DNA from: Octopus sinensis
Taxonomy: Eukaryota
Direction: 5' to 3'
Assembly: GCF_006345805.1 (NCBI RefSeq)
Contig: NC_043000.1
Span: 141,422,001 to 141,486,000, forward strand
DNA: 64,000 bases
The number at the start of each line of letters is the position of its first letter. Position 1 is the stretch's first letter. Of the stretch, positions 4,816-35,505 are shown in pieces. The notes below the pieces were generated by a model that did no database searches, was not told the origin of the DNA, and saw only the letters and a list, made by a program, of their open reading frames with translations. Both the position numbers and the translations under genes were made by a program.

Positions 4816-5062
4816 TATTTCGTTCAGTTTTTCTAATTATGGCTATCGACACTTTTCTTTGGGTTTTTAGTGGTTACGTCGATACAGTTTGTCGAAACAA
4901 AAGCTGAATCTAAGCAAACTTCTCTCGACACCGGCCTGTAAACATGACGAAACGAACGTGAAAGTCCTTCACAGACAAGTCTCAGCAAAGTAAGTCGATT
5001 TCAATACGTTTTGGATTTTTAGAATAGATTTTTTTGGCGATCATTCGATACTTTTTTTTCTT

Positions 5063-6030: not shown

Positions 6031-6703
6031 TACACGTGATGTAAACGGGACTCATATCGAAAGAATGCCATTTTTTTTTCTTTAACCCTTTTGATGCCAA
6101 CCCACCTGAAACTGACCCCGGTTCTATGATGTTGTTGTGACGAAAGTCAGGACACCCCCTGTGAGAATAGACTGAACAAATGATTATAAACAGTAATGGT
6201 CTGAGTGTGATGGAGAGAGACTAATCGCAGGATGTAATAAGGTAAAAATCTTTATTATGATCATGAGATCGAACATCGAAAAGGACATAACAAGACGGAC
6301 AAATGCAAAAATGTTACGCGAGTTCGAATGAGACTTTTAAAAATTTAATTATATCTTTCTATATATAAAGCTGAAGTTGTCTGTGTATGGCAGGTTTGGT
6401 AGCCTTCAACTAACACTATCTCATCCGAGACCCTGTGGCACAAGTTGACTAAAATTGAGAGTATTTTGCTGTTTAAAATATAATTATAATAATAAGTCGT
6501 TCTTCGAGAAGAACGGTGGTCTCCTTGGCAACGCTTACGATGTGTGTGTTTTCCCTCCCCTCCCCTTCCCCACAGCTTCGCAAGGGAGGGAAAGAAGGGG
6601 AGGAGCAACACAGGTGCAGGTGCGAGCATGGACGCCGACACACGAAGAATTGGAAGAACCCAGACGACAGCTTCACAGTCAACCAGTACTACGGACAACT
6701 CTG

Positions 6704-8091
6704 CCACGACCACCACCACCACCACCATCACCACAACCACCACCACCATCACCACCACCACCATCACCACCACCATCGCCGCCACCATCGCCGCCACCAC
6801 CACCATCACCACCACCACCATCACCATCACCATCATCACCACCATCACCAACTCCACCACCACAACCATCACCACCGCCACCACCACCACCATCATCACC
6901 ACCACCAACACCACCACCACCATCACCACCACCACCATCACCATCACCACCATCACCATCACCACCACCACCATCACCATCACCACCATCACCATCATCA
7001 CCAACTCCACCACCACCACCATCACCATCACCACCATCACCACCACCACCACCATCACCACCACTACCATCACCATCATCACCAACTCCACCACCACCAA
7101 CTCCACCTGTACCACCACCACCACCACCACCACCGCCACCATCACCACCACCACCACCACCACCACTGACACCAACTCCACCACCACCACCACCACCACC
7201 ATCACCAACTCCACCACCATCAACTCCACCTGTACCACCACCACCACCACCACCACCACCACCACCATCACCACCACCATCACCACCACCATCACCACCA
7301 CCATCGCCGACACCATCACCACCACCACCATCACCACCACCATCACTACCACCATCGCCGCCACCACCACCACCACAACCTCGCCGCCACCACCACCACC
7401 ACCTCGCCGCCACCACCACCACCACCACCACCATCACCACCACCACCACCATCACCATCATCACCATCACCACCACCACCACCACCACCATCACCATCAC
7501 CACTATCACCATCATCACCAACTCCACCACCACCACCATCACCACCGCCATACCACCACCATCATCACCATCACCACACCACCACCACCACCACCACCAC
7601 CACCACCATCACCACCACTATCATCACCATCATCACACCAACTCCACCACCACGAACTCCACCTGTACCACCACCACCACCACCACCGCCACCATCACCA
7701 CCACCACCACCACCACCATCACCACCACTATCATCACCATCATCACCACCACCACCATCACCATCATCACCATCACCACCACCACCACCACCACCACCGC
7801 CACATCACCGCCACCAAACCACCACCACCATCTCACCAACTCCACCACCACCAACTCCACCTGTACCACCACCACCACCACCACCGCCACCACCACCACC
7901 ACCACCACCACCACCATCACCACCACTATCATCACCATCATCACCAACTCCACCACCACCAACTCCACCTGTACCACCACCACCACCACCACCACCGCCA
8001 CCATCACCACCACCACCACCACCACCACCACCACCACCATCACCAACTCCACCATCACCATCATCACCAACTCCACCACCACCACCACCAC
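6704..8091. repeat. About 1.4 kb degenerate (ACC/ATC)n trinucleotide array
   Basis: Direct reading; recurring sub-motif ACCAACTCCACCTGT. Confidence 0.95.
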
Positions 8092-13829: not shown

Positions 13830-13866
13830 CTTTTACGTTTCGAGCCTACGCTCTTCCACAGAAAGG
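13830..13866 (-). ncRNA. Variant or degenerate minimal type I hammerhead-like motif
   Basis: cuuu-CUGUGGAA-GAGC guag GCUC-GAAA-CG-UA-aaag; core has A6U plus an extra A. Confidence 0.4.
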
Positions 13867-31680: not shown

Positions 31681-33202
31681 AGTGAGCATACAAAAATCCT
31701 GAAATGATTGGTGAAAAGAATAGCATATCTGGATTTATCTAAAAAAAAGTGCTTCAGAAACATTTGTCACTCCAAAACAAATATTTCCGTCTCCAAATTA
31801 TGTAGTCCTGTGTAATATACAATTTAGTCGTTAATATTTATTTCTACACTGAATACTGAGATATAGTTTGAGAATATTTCTGAATTAGGAGTCCATTTTC
31901 ATGTTTTGTGCGCTCTCAAGTGCATTCAATTTGAAATATCTCTTATTTTTTTATCGTTATCTAATTCCTTTATTTCAGTGTGTACTTAACCTTATATCGT
32001 TCACTTCTAAAAGCAACATTGCCACATTTACTAATTGAATAGTTGTGTGGCATATCATTGGATTTTTCTTCCAAGGATAAAGCTATGTTGAATTGTTACC
32101 AAGCCATTTCCGTATGGGTTAACGTGTTTTTGTTTCAAACCATATTAGGAAGTTGTTTGATCTCTCTACAATGCGTTACGTTAAAAAACAGAAGTTTATT
32201 ATTGTTAGTAATATTTTGATATGTTTTCAGGAATTCCCATGGACAAAATAGACTCACCCAATAGACTCACACTTGAACATTCCAAATCCAAAGTATGTTT
32301 ATTGTATTTCATATGATAGTTACAACATTTGGATTTTTCGCTACGCAATATCAGTACTTGTGTCGTCATTTCATGCAACCGTTAAAGGGAAATGTGCCTT
32401 CATCATGTTGCAAACTTCCGATAAATGAAACAAATTGACCCTCAGCTGTATGTAACGTTAACACAGTCTCACTATAGTGTATTGGACAACGATAACCGAC
32501 TTCTGTCAACACTAGATTGAAACGAGGAATATACTGATAAAAGTTTAGCCGCTTCTGTATTCGGTGATGTGTTGACCTACCGATATTCAAAGAGAAAGAA
32601 GCTAGAGATATTGATGTTTGCTTGCAAGTAACAATGAAATTACTGACACGTTCTCTTGATTGTTCTGCTGTAACTTCAAAGGGACGGTATTTCGCTTTTT
32701 ATCTGTTATACTGGATTTCGTCAAGTTTACAGAATTATATGTTATTGAGCTTTGTGATACGGCTTGAGGTGATTGAACTTTTTCCCCGAGAGAAATGACT
32801 ATTGGAGGAAGATGTAAATACTTAGAGACGCTTGTTTCAGGAAATATTGACAGTAAAGCGGGTGCTAAAACAGTTGGTGCAGTGTGCCAAAAAAATTTAA
32901 TCAAATATAATTACAGACATACTGATGAGAAATCACCCACTACATTAATGAATAACTCCGATTAAGAAAGACAGGTGAGAGAAAGCTGGAATTTAAATTA
33001 AGATTTTAAAAATCCAGAATGCAAGATGTATTAAATAAAAGATATAGAGTGATCTTTGATAATTTTCACCGTGCGGCCAATGATCATGGTCTTCATGTTC
33101 TAGTATAAATTTTAATTCCGATTTGTCTATATTGATTTCTTGATCAGGGTAAGTCATTAATTATGTTAATAGATGTTTTTCTGCTTTCCTCCCCTTCTGC
33201 TG

Positions 33203-33247
<45 letters not shown>

Positions 33248-33258
33248 AATTATATATA

Positions 33259-33740
33259 GGATAAAATTTTTATCGGAAAAAAAAAAATATCAATGGCCAG
33301 CATATCAAAAAATGCCTTTAAAGGTAAAATTTATACATAATTTACAAGATAAGGGCAGAAGAAAAATTCTAATGCCAAATATGCCGAAACAAAAAATTTT
33401 TTTGTCGATAACCATTAAAATTTATGCGTCTCGAAATAAACCGATAGAAATCTCTAAAAAATTCGTTATTACCGTATTGGTCCAATTTCGGGGTTAATTC
33501 ACAAGAAATTTTCCCCTCTTCAGCGGCAAATACGCGAGATATAAATGAAATACTTACTCATACCCAAGAAAAAGCAAGCACTAAGTCCCGAGCAGACTTA
33601 AGTACCCCAAATATATCCAAAATAGAAAAAATCTTCGGCGCACCTCGAGACACGTGTGATTCGAACTAGAAAATTTCACAGAGTGATAGAATCCGGAAGT
33701 TAACACTAATCAATTAATTAACAATTTTACCAAGTAGATC
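33259..33740 (-). mobile_element. TA-adjacent hammerhead-bearing insert (Penelope-like terminal repeat); boundaries approximate
   Basis: Begins at the edge of (TA)n 33203-33258 and carries the hammerhead motif. Confidence 0.5.
33464..33534 (-). ncRNA. Type I hammerhead ribozyme with intact core and palindromic stem III
   Basis: uauuugccg-CUGAAGA-GGGG(19 nt)CCCC-GAAA-UUGG a CCAA-UA|cgguaaua; predicted cleavage between 33475 and 33474. Confidence 0.8.
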
Positions 33741-33920
33741 GGTACGTTAAAATTACCTGGTGTGTTCCATTGGGATTGCACTATGCGAAAGCAACACGAA
33801 TGCGAGGAAGTATATAGTGACCAGCGGTGTATAACAATGTCCCATAGTCTGATCAATACAGTGTTACACTGATACATGCATGTATGTTATGTATGTATGT
33901 ATGTATGTGTATGTATGTAC

Positions 33921-33992
<72 letters not shown>
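33921..33992. repeat. (GATA)n microsatellite
   Basis: Direct reading. Confidence 0.95.
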
Positions 33993-33994
<2 letters not shown>

Positions 33995-34607
33995 ATAAAT
34001 ATAAATTATACATATGTTAATTTGTATGTACGTCTTACGTCAAGGGACTTTGTATATGCACATGTACACAGATATATCGAGAGTATTTGCGAATATATGT
34101 GTGTCTGTGTCTGAAACTTGTAATGAAACAACCCGGAAAATTTGTTTGTCATTTGTTGGCTTTTAAAGTTCGGAAGTTTATCTGACATAGAAACACTTCA
34201 ATTTATCAAATCTTCAATCTCTTAATCTGATATGATTCCCTGAAGGTACTTTAAAGGATTATGTAAGCATTTAGCTGATGGACTTTCCTACAGCTGCAGG
34301 CGAAAAAAAAATAATAATAAATGACGTAAAAATAAATATAAATGAAAAAAAAAAAATACAATTTTGAAAATTTTCAAGAAATCAGTGTTTTTATAGCCAC
34401 AGTACAATTACACTGTAGACGTAATGGTTGATTTCTCAATCATAGATGATTCCCCGAGAAATTCGATTTTATCGATTATTTCTTCTAACCAAAAAGAAAG
34501 AAACAAGCTGATGATGTAGACACCCGCGTCCGCGTGCGCTCACACACATAGAGAAGCACACACACACACACAGAAGCATACACGTATATGTACGTTAAGT
34601 ATATATG

Positions 34608-34636
<29 letters not shown>

Positions 34637-34638
<2 letters not shown>

Positions 34639-34684
34639 CTCCGATGAAGGGATATAAAAAATATCCCGGAAACAGCTGTAAGAC
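34637..34684 (+). ncRNA. Minimal type I hammerhead ribozyme (U4C variant)
   Basis: gucu-CCGAUGA-a GGGAUAU aaaaa AUAUCCC g-GAAA-CAGCUG-UA|agac; predicted cleavage after 34680. Confidence 0.75.
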
Positions 34685-34832
34685 CTATTTATAAATGTTC
34701 TAAAATCTTCACAGCCTTGGGTTTTTTTTATCTCATTCTGAAAAAAATTATATATACATATATATGCATAGATAAATAGATAAGCAGATATATAATATAT
34801 ACATACACACCAGACACCCACATATATATATA

Positions 34833-34863
<31 letters not shown>

Positions 34864-34946
34864 GGTAGATAGATAGATAGATATATTGATTGAGTGAGTG
34901 ATTGATTGATAAATAAACTGATGACTAGACTGATAGAGAGACATAT

Positions 34947-34984
<38 letters not shown>

Positions 34985-35405
34985 GCAGATAGATCAATAG
35001 ATATCACCATCTACAAACACACACACACGTATTCACAAATTTAAATACATGTAAAATATGCTCCAAGCGACGTTCACATACGAACACAACGACCACATTT
35101 AGAATATTCTCTTTCGCTAATATACGTATACCCAAGCTTATACATATGCACATTATCGAATTATTTCTCTTGGCGAATTGTCTTACTGAATATATGTAAT
35201 AAACGTTGAAATAGAAAATAGGTGAAATGTAGTTTCATCAAAACTTAAAGATAAATTTTAATGAGGACCAGTTAACTGGACTCTATGTTGTAAACATCGC
35301 AGCTATAAAATTGTAAACATTCAACGCGCTTTACCCTCTTGACACGTGAAAAAATGCTTGGTGGAACTCTTCTTGATTTCAAAGTAATTTCTTCATAAGC
35401 AGCCC

Positions 35406-35505
35406 NNNNNNNNNNNNNNNNNNNNNNNNNNNNNNNNNNNNNNNNNNNNNNNNNNNNNNNNNNNNNNNNNNNNNNNNNNNNNNNNNNNNNNNNNNNNNNN
35501 NNNNN
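35406..35505. other. Assembly gap (100 N)
   Basis: N run. Confidence 1.

What the first reader, a model, noticed from the sequence alone, without database searches (positions are those of the whole stretch)
34637..34684. Second, unrelated minimal hammerhead in a 115 bp insert between microsatellites
Seen (plus strand): GUCU/AGAC stem I, CCGAUGA core (U4C), a perfect 7 bp stem II closed by A.G, GAAA, palindromic ACAGCUGU stem III and a GUA site. The insert starts essentially at the ribozyme and is bounded by (TG)n and (TA)n. It shares no primary sequence with the 33.5 kb motif, so it is a different family.
Basis: partly seen in the sequence, partly recalled or inferred. Interest (0 to 1): 0.75.

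Follow-up and report, generated by a model that had tools for sequence, protein, structure and literature searches.

The report
Penelope retroelement stub with hammerhead motif
The 48-base motif is the small hammerhead-ribozyme module that a very abundant Penelope-like jumping gene carries near its tail, here in a cut-short dead copy whose core holds a change that likely weakens or abolishes self-cutting, so the catch is correct but of a kind already described.

Summary
The motif is in the sequence exactly as described (34637-34684, +). It is not a free-standing 115-bp ribozyme insert. It is part of a high-copy interspersed repeat in this 2.72-Gb genome (2968 first-look candidates). In other copies homology runs on upstream, up to about 1.3 kb, into the end of a long ORF. 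[quoted passage not shown]

Sister PLE families in the same genome carry an exact-core hammerhead of the same architecture in their 3' UTRs (17 of 19 loci). Helix I, helix II and a 6-nt palindromic helix III covary among them. A covariance model built only from those sister motifs returns 34637-34684 as the top hit in the window (24.6 bits, E about 0.004).

This family's founder already had C at core position 4: 272 CCG, 65 CTG and 59 CCA exact 29-mers, which fits symmetric CpG decay. RNA-seq reads and the 5' ends of genomic copies show no sign of cutting at the predicted site.

Verdict: a real PLE-type minimal hammerhead in a truncated, probably inert copy. It is a new member of a known kind, and this scan has met the same kind in other genomes. 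Interest is low.

The parts
34637..34756 (+). 5'-truncated copy (about 116-120 bp) of the 3' UTR of a Penelope-like retroelement family. It ends at the family's short-form 3' end (CTGAAAAAAATTATATATA).
   Evidence: the 116-nt query gave 2968 first-look candidates and 40 scored copies at 92-96% identity; the other copies continue upstream.
34637..34640 (+). Helix I, 5' strand (GUCU, positions 2.4-2.1).
   Evidence: It pairs with 34681-34684.
34641..34647 (+). 5' catalytic box CCGAUGA (C3, C4 in place of U4, G5, A6, U7, G8, A9).
   Evidence: Family founder state: 272 CCG, 65 CTG, 59 CCA; 39 of 72 CCGATGA.
34648..34668 (+). Helix II: unpaired A34648, then 7 bp GGGAUAU/AUAUCCC (34649-34655 with 34661-34667), loop AAAAA, and an extra G34668.
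   Evidence: this hairpin is in the MFE fold.
34669..34672 (+). 3' catalytic box GAAA (G12, A13, A14, A15.1).
34672..34679 (+). Helix III palindrome ACAGCUGU. As a monomer it gives only 2 bp plus a 4-nt loop. It is predicted to form 8 bp between two copies.
   Evidence: double-hammerhead energy -31.1 against a dimer MFE of -31.3 kcal/mol; sister families have other 6-nt palindromes at the same place.
34680..34680 (+). A17. The predicted cleavage site lies after this base. No cleavage has been shown.
   Evidence: Follows from hammerhead numbering. Searches found no molecule or copy ends at this point.
34681..34684 (+). Helix I, 3' strand (AGAC).
34540..34636 (.). (CA)n / (TA)n / (TG)n microsatellite tract upstream of the fragment.
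   Evidence: PLE insertion bias for microsatellites is described in passages of PMC8557442.
34757..34870 (.). (TA)n-rich tract downstream of the fragment.

Best explanation
The motif at 34637-34684 is the minimal, dimer-type hammerhead module of the 3' untranslated region of an abundant Penelope-like retroelement (PLE) family, present here in a 5'-truncated copy of about 116 bp lodged in a (TA)n/(TG)n tract, and it is likely weak or dead as a ribozyme because the family's founder already had C instead of U at core position 4.

Shown: the repeat family; the upstream continuation into an ORF with RT-like motifs and a GIY-YIG domain; the homologous exact-core hammerheads in sister families; and C4 as the founder state.

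Inferred: in transcripts that hold two modules (tandem or partial-tandem PLE copies), the ACAGCUGU palindromes would pair to give an 8-bp helix III and two composite hammerheads. These would be predicted to cut after A17, the equivalent of 34680. The lone fragment in this window has no partner with a matching palindrome and is predicted to do nothing. It would have arisen by target-primed reverse transcription that stopped early, in a microsatellite of the kind PLE endonucleases prefer.
For: (1) High-copy repeat. The 116-nt query gave 2968 first-look candidates, and 40 scored copies were 92-96% identical.

(2) All 19 other loci of that search continue upstream of the motif. Their 5' ends are scattered from about -62 to beyond -1300, the pattern of a 5'-truncating retroelement.

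(3) Three long copies share 1.24-1.34 kb upstream, ending in an ORF C-terminus. That 118-aa piece has 14901 first-look candidates in the genome.

(4) Related families have intact single ORFs of 960 and 1124 aa. A 29-sequence alignment has invariant D295 and Y389-R390-x-D392.

(5) A profile of the C-terminal domain hits the GIY-YIG nucleases T4 endonuclease II (2wsh, E 4.6e-4) and I-TevI (1mk0, E 0.0094), with GIY, YIG, R and H aligned.

(6) Seventeen of 19 sister loci have one exact-core hammerhead on the sense strand, 485 to 2137 nt after the ORF end (16 of the 17 at 1108 nt or more). The controls gave 1 hit on the antisense strands and 7 hits in 20 shuffled sets.

(7) On the alignment of 12 sister motifs, 93.3% of cells pair (67.1% when shuffled, 0 of 500 shuffles reach it; at most 35.8% when partners are slid). 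Ten of 12 pairs change on both sides.

(8) Model R1, built from those 12 sequences only, gives 34637-34684(+) as the best of 3 matches in the window (24.6 bits, E 0.0039).

(9) Six of 20 loci hold a second, inverted copy 45-390 bp away. These features match passages I read in PMC4209133: helix II of 7-8 bp, helix I of 4-5 bp, an unpaired nucleotide after A9, palindromic positions 15.2-16.2, and pairs on opposite strands 100-700 bp apart.

(10) Founder state C4. Exact 29-mers count 272 CCG, 65 CTG and 59 CCA. In a sample anchored downstream, 39 of 72 copies read CCGATGA, 12 CTGATGA, 8 CCAATGA and 13 something else.
Against: The core departs from the hammerhead consensus at U4.

In most family copies the innermost helix II pair (10.1-11.1) is G.U rather than G-C, and an extra G precedes G12.

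Rfam reports no hammerhead here at any threshold. It also misses the exact-core sister motifs, so this weighs little.

The monomer MFE (-10.6 kcal/mol) pairs UCC (bases 4-6) with GGA (bases 32-34). That ties up C3, C4 and G12. The hammerhead fold is 3 kcal/mol worse.

Pfam does not recognise the ORFs: no family on the window-family pieces or on the two intact ORFs. RVT_1 and GIY-YIG each appear in only 1 of 29 aligned relatives, below threshold. The RT assignment therefore rests on motifs, weak hits and one source's name.

The hammerhead module is somewhat better kept among copies (0.92-0.98 per site) than the upstream flank (0.887). That could mean the module mattered to the source copies, which argues against 'dead'.

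A passage of PMC3088659 says a U4C hammerhead, though much less active in vitro, still supports viroid infectivity.
Confidence: 0.85

Rival explanations
1. The C4 variant is an active ribozyme. In transcripts with two modules it would form the double hammerhead and cut after A17, processing PLE RNA, with U4C tolerated as in a viroid hammerhead.
For: Every other core position is intact, as are helix I (4 bp), helix II (7 bp) and the palindrome. The double-hammerhead fold is nearly isoenergetic with the dimer MFE (-31.1 against -31.3 kcal/mol). The module is slightly better conserved than its flank. A passage of PMC3088659 reports that a U4C hammerhead remains functional in vivo. Same-strand neighbours 1021-1872 bp apart exist (3 pairs among the 100 places listed).
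Against: Three raw RNA-seq runs showed no place where molecules begin or end. At most 1 of 88 downstream-anchored genomic copies (L145, ambiguous between q43 and q45), and 0 of 30 in the other sample, could start at the cleavage product's first base. The competing fold ties up C3/C4. About half or more of the RNA reads over the module also carry G5 changed to A. Even exact-core PLE mini-hammerheads cut poorly in vitro (PMC4209133), and cleavage was dispensable for insertion in vitro (PMC11167929). The copy in this window has no partner.
Confidence: 0.12
2. A chance look-alike. A hairpin beside GAAA and a near-CUGAUGA word happens to resemble a hammerhead and has no evolutionary link to ribozymes.
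For: Relaxed one-mismatch descriptors hit shuffled sequence 0.158 times per 64 kb. That extrapolates to thousands of hits in 2.7 Gb. Rfam is silent. The fold z-score is only -1.21.
Against: The motif sits at the place in the 3' UTR where 17 of 19 sister-family loci carry an exact-core hammerhead of the same architecture. It shares GAAACAGCTGT with family C. A model trained without it ranks it first in the window.
Confidence: 0.02
3. The module is kept for a non-catalytic job. The 6-nt palindrome would act as an RNA-RNA pairing (dimerisation) site, or the fold as a recognition element for the element's RT, so catalysis can be lost while the shape is retained.
For: Palindromy is kept in all six sister families with five different 6-mers, and also in this C4 family. 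The palindrome and GAAA are among the best-kept sites (0.95-0.98). Five distinct truncated copies begin at q37-q40 inside the palindrome, three of them joined to inverted pieces. Passages of PMC11167929 say cleavage mutants still insert in vitro.
Against: There is no direct test. Palindromy is equally what a dimeric ribozyme needs. The cluster of 5' ends is small and was noticed after the fact. At least one junction (L084) rests on a GCTGT microhomology that occurs twice in the element (my reading of the output).
Confidence: 0.1

Closest known systems
Minimal hammerheads (min-HHR) in the terminal repeats of metazoan Penelope-like elements (Cervera and De la Pena 2014, PMC4209133; parts 1 and 2 of 4 of the text read)
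   Same: Type I topology. Short helix I (4 bp) and long helix II (7 bp). An unpaired nucleotide after A9. Palindromic helix III that only makes sense as a dimer. Location near the end of an RT plus GIY-YIG element. Thousands of mostly solitary truncated copies, some in opposite-strand pairs a few hundred bp apart.
   Different: C instead of U at core position 4 in the family founder. An extra G before G12, and in most copies G.U at 10.1-11.1. A 6-nt palindrome (8-bp helix III in the dimer), where the paper describes mostly shorter ones. The host is apparently a cephalopod, inferred from best protein hits to Argonauta hians. My searches of the held library found no paper describing such motifs in octopus.
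Canonical EN+ Penelope-like elements (Craig et al. 2021, PMC8557442, passages read; Frangieh et al. 2024, PMC11167929, passages read)
   Same: A single ORF with RT-like motifs followed by a C-terminal GIY-YIG domain preceded by a Cys-rich motif. A hammerhead near the 3' end. 5'-truncated copies, inverted head-to-head pairs and tandem copies. Insertions flanked by (TA)n. Two alternative 3' ends.
   Different: The optional 3' extension here is about 160 bp, against the 30-40 bp 'tail' described. I did not determine the clade. This family's own ORFs are decayed; the longest open frame I saw is 476 aa.
Viroid hammerhead with natural U4C (cited in Perreault et al. 2011, PMC3088659, passage read)
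   Same: The same core substitution in a natural hammerhead, said there to lower activity considerably in vitro while still permitting function in vivo.
   Different: That ribozyme is a viroid hammerhead with tertiary contacts. This one is a minimal type I motif with no visible loop-loop contacts, in a DNA-encoded retroelement.
Non-LTR retrozymes / tandem satellite hammerheads of animals (PMC7229834 and bioRxiv 10.64898/2026.07.22.740005; abstracts only seen)
   Same: Type I hammerhead with a weak palindromic helix III. Proposed derivation from PLE terminal repeats.
   Different: No short head-to-tail arrays here. Among the 100 listed places of the 29-mer, the closest same-strand neighbours are 1021-1872 bp apart. 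Circular RNA was not looked for.

Membership tests
Hammerhead ribozyme (type I) | 5' catalytic box C3-U4-G5-A6-N7-G8-A9 | tested here: not met
   The sequence reads CCGAUGA, so 6 of 7 positions fit and position 4 is C. C4 is the family founder state.
Hammerhead ribozyme (type I) | 3' box G12-A13-A14, the A15.1-U16.1 pair, and H17 before the cleavage site | tested here: met
   GAAA 34669-34672, U34679, A34680.
Hammerhead ribozyme (type I) | Three helices around the core, open at helix I | tested here: met
   Helix I has 4 bp and helix II 7 bp. Helix III has 2 bp as a monomer and 8 bp as a dimer. The monomer hammerhead fold is not the MFE.
Hammerhead ribozyme (type I) | Site-specific self-cleavage | not testable with these tools
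   Indirect looks were negative. No piled-up read ends in 3 RNA-seq runs. At most 1 of 88 and 0 of 30 copies start at the product's first base.
Hammerhead ribozyme (type I) | Match to Rfam hammerhead covariance models | tested here: not met
   No hammerhead family at gathering score or at E up to 10. The control is also negative for six sister loci with exact-core motifs, so the test is insensitive to this class.
PLE minimal hammerhead (min-HHR) | Lies in the terminal or 3' region of an RT plus GIY-YIG retroelement | tested here: met
   in L036 the ORF ends at 5017 and the motif lies near 6084-6130. One search supports the GIY-YIG domain.
PLE minimal hammerhead (min-HHR) | Long helix II (6-8 bp), short helix I (4-5 bp), unpaired nucleotide between A9 and 10.1 | tested here: met
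   7 bp, 4 bp, and A34648. The criteria come from PMC4209133.
PLE minimal hammerhead (min-HHR) | Conserved G10.1-C11.1 pair | tested here: inconclusive
   The window copy has G34649-C34667. Most family copies have G.U (T at 0.79 of copies). An extra G lies between 11.1 and G12.
PLE minimal hammerhead (min-HHR) | Palindromic 15.2-16.2 / loop 3, allowing a dimer | tested here: met
   CAGCUG here. Sister families have CAUAUG, UGGCCA, CAGCUG, CGAUCG and CAAUUG.
PLE minimal hammerhead (min-HHR) | Homology or architecture shared with hammerheads of related PLE families | tested here: met
   Model R1, built from 12 sister motifs and excluding this family, gives 24.6 bits and E 0.0039 as the top hit in the window.
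Penelope-like element (host element) | Reverse transcriptase domain | tested here: inconclusive
   Invariant D295 and Y389-R390-x-D392. RVT_1 appears in only 1 of 29 relatives, at E 4.4e-5 and below cut-off. One source names a relative 'Reverse transcriptase domain'. Atlas look-alike clusters carry HTH_animal plus RVT_1. No PDB hit by sequence or profile.
Penelope-like element (host element) | GIY-YIG endonuclease C-terminal to the RT | tested here: met
   The profile of 13 C-terminal domains hits T4 endonuclease II (E 4.6e-4) and I-TevI (E 0.0094) over GIY..YIG..R..H.
Penelope-like element (host element) | Tandem (pseudo-LTR) and inverted 5'-truncated arrangements; microsatellite targets | tested here: met
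   Inverted second copies in 6 of 20 loci. Sister family A shows many (-,+) pairs and a 4368-bp tandem. (TA)n flanks are seen.
Non-LTR retrozyme / satellite hammerhead | Short (about 150-400 nt) head-to-tail arrays, each unit with a hammerhead | tested here: not met
   None among the 100 listed places. The closest same-strand pairs are 1021, 1245 and 1872 bp apart.

The most novel reading that the evidence does not exclude
A prolific Penelope-like family spread with a catalytically crippled hammerhead (C4) yet kept the fold and its 6-nt palindrome. This would mean that what selection retains in these modules is not self-cleavage but RNA-RNA pairing, a dimer linkage like the dimerisation site of retroviruses. 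Template switching at that linkage would then build the inverted and tandem insertion structures typical of these elements.
Probability: 0.1. Interest if true: 0.55.

Novelty: new member of a known kind. Interest (0 to 1): 0.2.

Why it matters
It matters little for ribozyme biology as such. Minimal hammerheads in Penelope-like elements have been described since 2014, and this scan has met them in other genomes.

Two points are useful. First, the genome holds at least seven PLE families whose hammerheads covary cleanly, and Rfam models do not find them. Annotation pipelines will therefore miss thousands of such motifs. Second, this family's founder carried U4C, and I could detect no trace of cutting. 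That fits published hints that cleavage is dispensable for PLE spread, and it offers natural C4 and U4 copies for a direct test.

Tried and rejected
**Rfam.** Tried at the gathering score and at E up to 10. No hammerhead was reported. I rejected this as evidence after the negative control on sister loci.

**Pfam.** Nothing on the family's ORF pieces or on the intact sister ORFs. Only sub-threshold RVT_1 and GIY-YIG, each in 1 of 29 relatives.

**Protein searches.** The search for longer relatives of the 341-aa piece found none. PDB searches by sequence and by RT-region profile found none or chance hits only.

**Structure prediction.** I tried five times to predict the nuclease domain structure and the machine was busy each time. 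No fold test was made.

**Sequencing runs.** No RNA holder was listed.

**Retrozyme or short tandem array.** Rejected, because no close same-strand neighbours exist.

**Terminal inverted repeat of a DNA transposon or MITE.** This was my first idea after seeing the inverted pairs. I rejected it because the copies are 5'-truncated at many points, end in an A-rich/(TA)n 3' end, and continue into an RT/GIY-YIG ORF.

**U4 as the ancestral or active subfamily state.** Rejected, because CTG (65) and CCA (59) are equally frequent. That is what CpG decay of a CCG founder predicts.

**Genomic footprint of cleavage (copies starting at the base after A17).** Not found.

**Earlier notes for this genome or this sequence.** None.

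Full report
**Observation**

The + strand at 34637-34684 reads GTCT CCGATGA A GGGATAT AAAAA ATATCCC G GAAA CAGCTG TA AGAC. Helix I is 4 bp (34637-34640 with 34681-34684). The 5' box has C at position 4 (34641-34647). Helix II is a perfect 7 bp (34649-34655 with 34661-34667), bracketed by A34648 and G34668. GAAA is at 34669-34672, the palindrome ACAGCTGT at 34672-34679, and the GUA site ends at 34680. Upstream lies (TA)n(TG)n. Downstream lie an A-run and (TA)n.

As a single strand the region is unremarkable. The MFE is -11.5 kcal/mol with z -1.21, and 26 of 200 shuffles fold at least as well. Only the helix II hairpin appears in that fold.

Rfam finds no family at gathering score in the whole window. 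It finds no hammerhead among 38 matches at E up to 10 in 33000-35500, nor among 2 matches in 34625-34700.

**Chance**

I wrote a descriptor: helix I of at least 4 bp, CUGANGA with at most 1 mismatch, 0-1 unpaired nt beside helix II, helix II of at least 4 bp, GAAA, an even palindromic loop 3, then U-H. It gives no exact-core hit and two one-mismatch hits in the window, this motif and 13830-13865(-). Ninety-five dinucleotide shuffles gave 0.158 hits per window, and 0.021 with helix II of at least 7 bp. This is rare for one window but expected many times in a 2.72-Gb genome. The motif on its own does not decide anything.

**What the 115-bp insert is**

The 116 bases 34637-34752 are a high-copy interspersed repeat in the window's own genome. 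There were 2968 first-look candidates, and the 40 scored copies were 92-96% identical.

In all 19 other loci fetched, homology continues upstream of the base equivalent to 34637. The copies stop at many different points, about -62, -100, -130, -185, -230, -300, -590, -700 and beyond -1300. This is the signature of a retroelement that is 5'-truncated on insertion. The window's copy is simply one of the shortest, so its start at the ribozyme is an accident.

About half of the 20 loci end, like the window, at CTGAAAAAAATTATATATA. The rest run on for about 160 bp to ...CTCATAACCTATATATA.

Six of the 20 loci hold a second copy in inverted orientation 45-390 bp away, with the 5' ends facing each other.

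**The parent element**

Three long copies share 1.24-1.34 kb upstream of the motif. That stretch ends in the last 118 codons of an ORF, and this piece has 14901 first-look candidates in the genome.

A longer, decayed copy (L036) shows three things in order. First come ORF pieces with RT-like motifs. Then comes a 341-aa piece ending in CNCR..C..C, NVIYK...IYIGST...R...H. About 1.06 kb of 3' UTR follows, and then the motif.

Related families, about 50% identical in the RT-like part, have intact single ORFs of 960 and 1124 aa.

Pfam recognises none of these. Among 29 aligned relatives it gives only one sub-threshold RVT_1 and one sub-threshold GIY-YIG.

A wider protein search found 92 relatives. 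Sources name them as hypothetical proteins of Argonauta hians and a 'Reverse transcriptase domain' protein of Holothuria. Their precomputed Pfam families are PF26215, PF28514 and PF00078. The alignment has invariant D295 and Y389-R390-x-D392.

A profile of 13 C-terminal domains hits the GIY-YIG nucleases T4 endonuclease II (E 4.6e-4) and I-TevI (E 0.0094), with GIY, YIG, R and H aligned.

An RT-like domain followed by a C-terminal GIY-YIG domain, 5'-truncated and inverted copies, and (TA)n flanks are the defining layout of canonical Penelope-like elements. This is as described in passages of PMC8557442. The RT assignment is the weakest link. I could not add a fold test because the prediction machine was busy five times.

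**Is the hammerhead real in this lineage?**

I fetched 18 further loci of related families, chosen for long open frames from the list. Together with L040 they make 19 loci. In 17 of 19, the descriptor relaxed to at most 2 helix I mismatches and helix II of at least 3 bp finds exactly one exact-core hammerhead on the sense strand. These lie 485 to 2137 nt after the ORF end, 16 of the 17 at 1108 nt or more. The same loci give 1 hit on their antisense strands and 7 hits in 20 shuffled sets. The two misses were L057 (no hit) and L059 (same motif as L043, but with CTCACGA).

The hits fall into six sequence families:

| Family | Helix I 5' | 5' box | Helix II | Palindrome | Site | Helix I 3' |
|---|---|---|---|---|---|---|
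| A | GCGG | CUGAAGA | A GGCC..GGCC C | CAUAUG | UA | CCGC |
| B | UCCC | CUGACGA | AGGAGG..CCCCU | UGGCCA | UA | GGGA |
| C | UUCU | CUGAAGA | GGCCGUGGGG..CCUCACUGCC | CAGCUG | UC | AGUU |
| D | UUAG | CUGAUGA | GUACGGG..CCUUGUAU | CGAUCG | UA | CUAA |
| E | UUGG | CUGAUGA | AUAU..GUAU | CAAUUG | UA | CUGA |
| F | UCGG | CUGACGA | GUACGAG..CUCGUAC | CGAUCG | UA | CCGA |

GAAA follows helix II in every family.

On an alignment of 12 of these motifs, 93.3% of cells form standard pairs. The shuffled mean is 67.1%, 0 of 500 shuffles reach the observed value, and at most 35.8% pair with slid partners. Ten of 12 pairs change on both sides. There is a caveat: the sequences were picked by a descriptor that asks for pairing, so these numbers lean towards the structure. 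The antisense and shuffle controls are the cleaner test.

A covariance model built from these 12 sequences only was run over the whole window. The third is a microsatellite at E 5.

The window motif has the same architecture as the sister motifs and shares GAAACAGCTGT with family C. Rfam finds none of the exact-core sister motifs either: 58 matches at E up to 5 in six loci, none a hammerhead. Its silence on the window motif is therefore uninformative.

These features match the published description of PLE minimal hammerheads in PMC4209133 (parts 1 and 2 of 4 of the text read). That paper describes helix II of 7-8 bp, helix I of 4-5 bp, an unpaired nucleotide after A9, palindromic 15.2-16.2, action as dimers, mostly solitary truncated copies, some pairs on opposite strands 100-700 bp apart, and low activity in vitro.

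**The U4C change**

Exact 29-mers across the 5' box count 272 with CCG, 65 with CTG and 59 with CCA. The two decay products of a CpG are equally frequent. CTG, which happens to restore the consensus, is therefore post-insertion decay and not an ancestral or active subfamily.

I also took a sample chosen without regard to the motif. The pattern has 89 exact matches to a 29-mer just downstream of the motif, and 88 were fetched, the window's own copy being left out. Of these, 72 align at 75% identity or more across q-40..q45, where q1 is the base equivalent to window 34637. They read CCGATGA in 39 copies, CTGATGA in 12, CCAATGA in 8 and other variants in 13. The founder thus had C4.

A passage of PMC3088659 says most core changes drastically lower activity. 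It adds that a natural U4C hammerhead, though considerably less active in vitro, still supports viroid infectivity.

Folding adds a caution. The monomer MFE of -10.6 kcal/mol pairs UCC (bases 4-6) with GGA (bases 32-34), which ties up C3, C4 and G12. The monomer hammerhead fold costs -7.6. The double hammerhead of two copies costs -31.1, against a dimer MFE of -31.3 in which the intermolecular ACAGCUGU duplex forms.

**Signs of cutting**

Three raw RNA-seq runs with the same species label were laid on a family copy (L022:7760-8096) at 90% likeness or more. The numbers laid were 299, 205 and 202 reads, from about 6 in 100 of each run. Nearly all were 90-95% alike, so they come from other copies. 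Both orientations were about equal.

There was no place where many molecules begin or end. The predicted cut lies at L022 8035|8036. The fall in depth after 8039 coincides with loose ends, that is, with divergent relatives. About half or more of the reads over the module carry G5 changed to A. This is weak negative evidence, because ordinary libraries capture such ends poorly.

A second look used the 5' ends of genomic copies. If cut RNA were copied back, copies should start at q45, the base after A17.
- Of 30 copies anchored on q50-q114, none does.
- Of the 88 anchored on q46-q74, 73 reach q1 or beyond. Fifteen stop inside the module by my end-anchored alignment, at q44, 43, 39, 38, 37, 31, 24, 23, 16, 15, 9, 8, 7, 4 and 2.
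- Several of these 15 are internal deletions, a small duplication or a contig end (L140, L123, L137, L172, L171).
- Only L145, an inverted junction ambiguous between q43 and q45, could start at q45.

Passages of PMC11167929 report the same for an Anolis PLE. No reads ended at the hammerhead site, and cleavage mutants still inserted in vitro.

**Against 'dead'**

Per-site agreement among the 72 copies is higher in the module than in the 40 bases upstream. Excluding CpG sites, helix I scores 0.98, the core 0.96, GAAA 0.98, the palindrome 0.95 and helix II 0.92, against 0.887 for the flank. This may reflect selection on source copies. It may also be alignment quality near the anchor.

**Conclusion**

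The motif is a genuine member of the PLE minimal-hammerhead class. It sits in a truncated, solitary fragment that has no partner with a matching palindrome. The nearby 33.5-kb motif has UUGGACCAA at that place.

I put 0.85 on this reading. The sub-claim that the C4 module is weak or inactive is perhaps 0.6. The active-ribozyme rival gets 0.12 and chance 0.02. A non-catalytic role for the retained fold and palindrome is an open idea at about 0.1.

The kind is published, and earlier notes of this scan describe the same kind in other genomes. My search of the held library for 'hammerhead ribozyme' with 'octopus' found 5 papers (4 listed), none describing such motifs in cephalopod PLEs. Papers outside that library, and supplements I did not open, may do so.

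Noticed in passing
window 33471-33527 (-): An exact-core type I hammerhead: GCCG CUGAAGA GGGG..CCCC GAAA UUGGACCAA UA CGGU. It is the second-best hit of model R1 (21.1 bits, E 0.023). It lies 1.1 kb from the finding on the other strand. It shares no sequence with any PLE locus I fetched, so it belongs to another repeat family. My descriptor missed it because its loop 3 has an odd length.
   Followed up: partly
window 13830-13865 (-): A hammerhead-like 36-mer, CTTT CTGTGGA A GAGC GTAG GCTC GAAA CG TA AAAG, with U instead of A at core position 6. A near-identical stretch lies upstream of the family copy in L006. It is probably another dispersed repeat with a degenerate mini-hammerhead.
   Followed up: no
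L074/L173, L081, L084, L100, L135 (family copies; q37-q40 = window 34673-34676 equivalents): Five distinct truncated copies begin inside the ACAGCTGT palindrome. Three of them (L081, L084, L135) are joined there to an inverted piece of the same element. This is a small cluster noticed after the fact. By my reading of the output, one junction rests on a GCTGT microhomology.
   Followed up: partly
L004, L006, L008, L010, L013, L016, L017, L019 (about +125 to +280 after the motif start): The family has two alternative 3' ends. The short form ends at the A-run/(TA)n, as in the window. The long form has about 160 more bases and ends ...CTCATAACCTATATATA. This recalls the optional 'tail' of PLEs (PMC11167929 passages) but is much longer.
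   Followed up: partly
L022:7998 (G5 of the module), RNA runs X22-X24: About half or more of the RNA-seq reads over the module read A instead of G at core position 5. Many share flanks that differ from L022's (loose ends at 7983 and 8039). This points to a transcribed or abundant subfamily with a second core change.
   Followed up: no
G000 C1:98393757 and C1:98398125 (family A); many (-,+) pairs listed: Exact-core sister family A has 1022 exact 29-mers. They are very often in (-,+) pairs 60-4800 bp apart, with at least one head-to-tail tandem at 4368 bp. These are textbook PLE insertion structures, and the family looks young (identical motifs, intact ORFs).
   Followed up: partly
L040:2298-5672, L041:3690-6572 (-), L036:3992-5017: The PLE ORFs carry a long Asn/Ser/Thr-rich low-complexity linker, with runs of N, between the RT-like part and the nuclease domain. 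This may be why one Argonauta relative is named a 'GATA zinc finger domain-containing protein 14-like'.
   Followed up: no
L005 about 1630-2010 and L018 (downstream of the family copy): A roughly 380-bp repeat beginning GGCACAGGAGTGGCTGTGTGGTAAG... sits beside or inside two family copies and recurs in other loci. By eye it looks like a tRNA-derived SINE. This was not tested.
   Followed up: no
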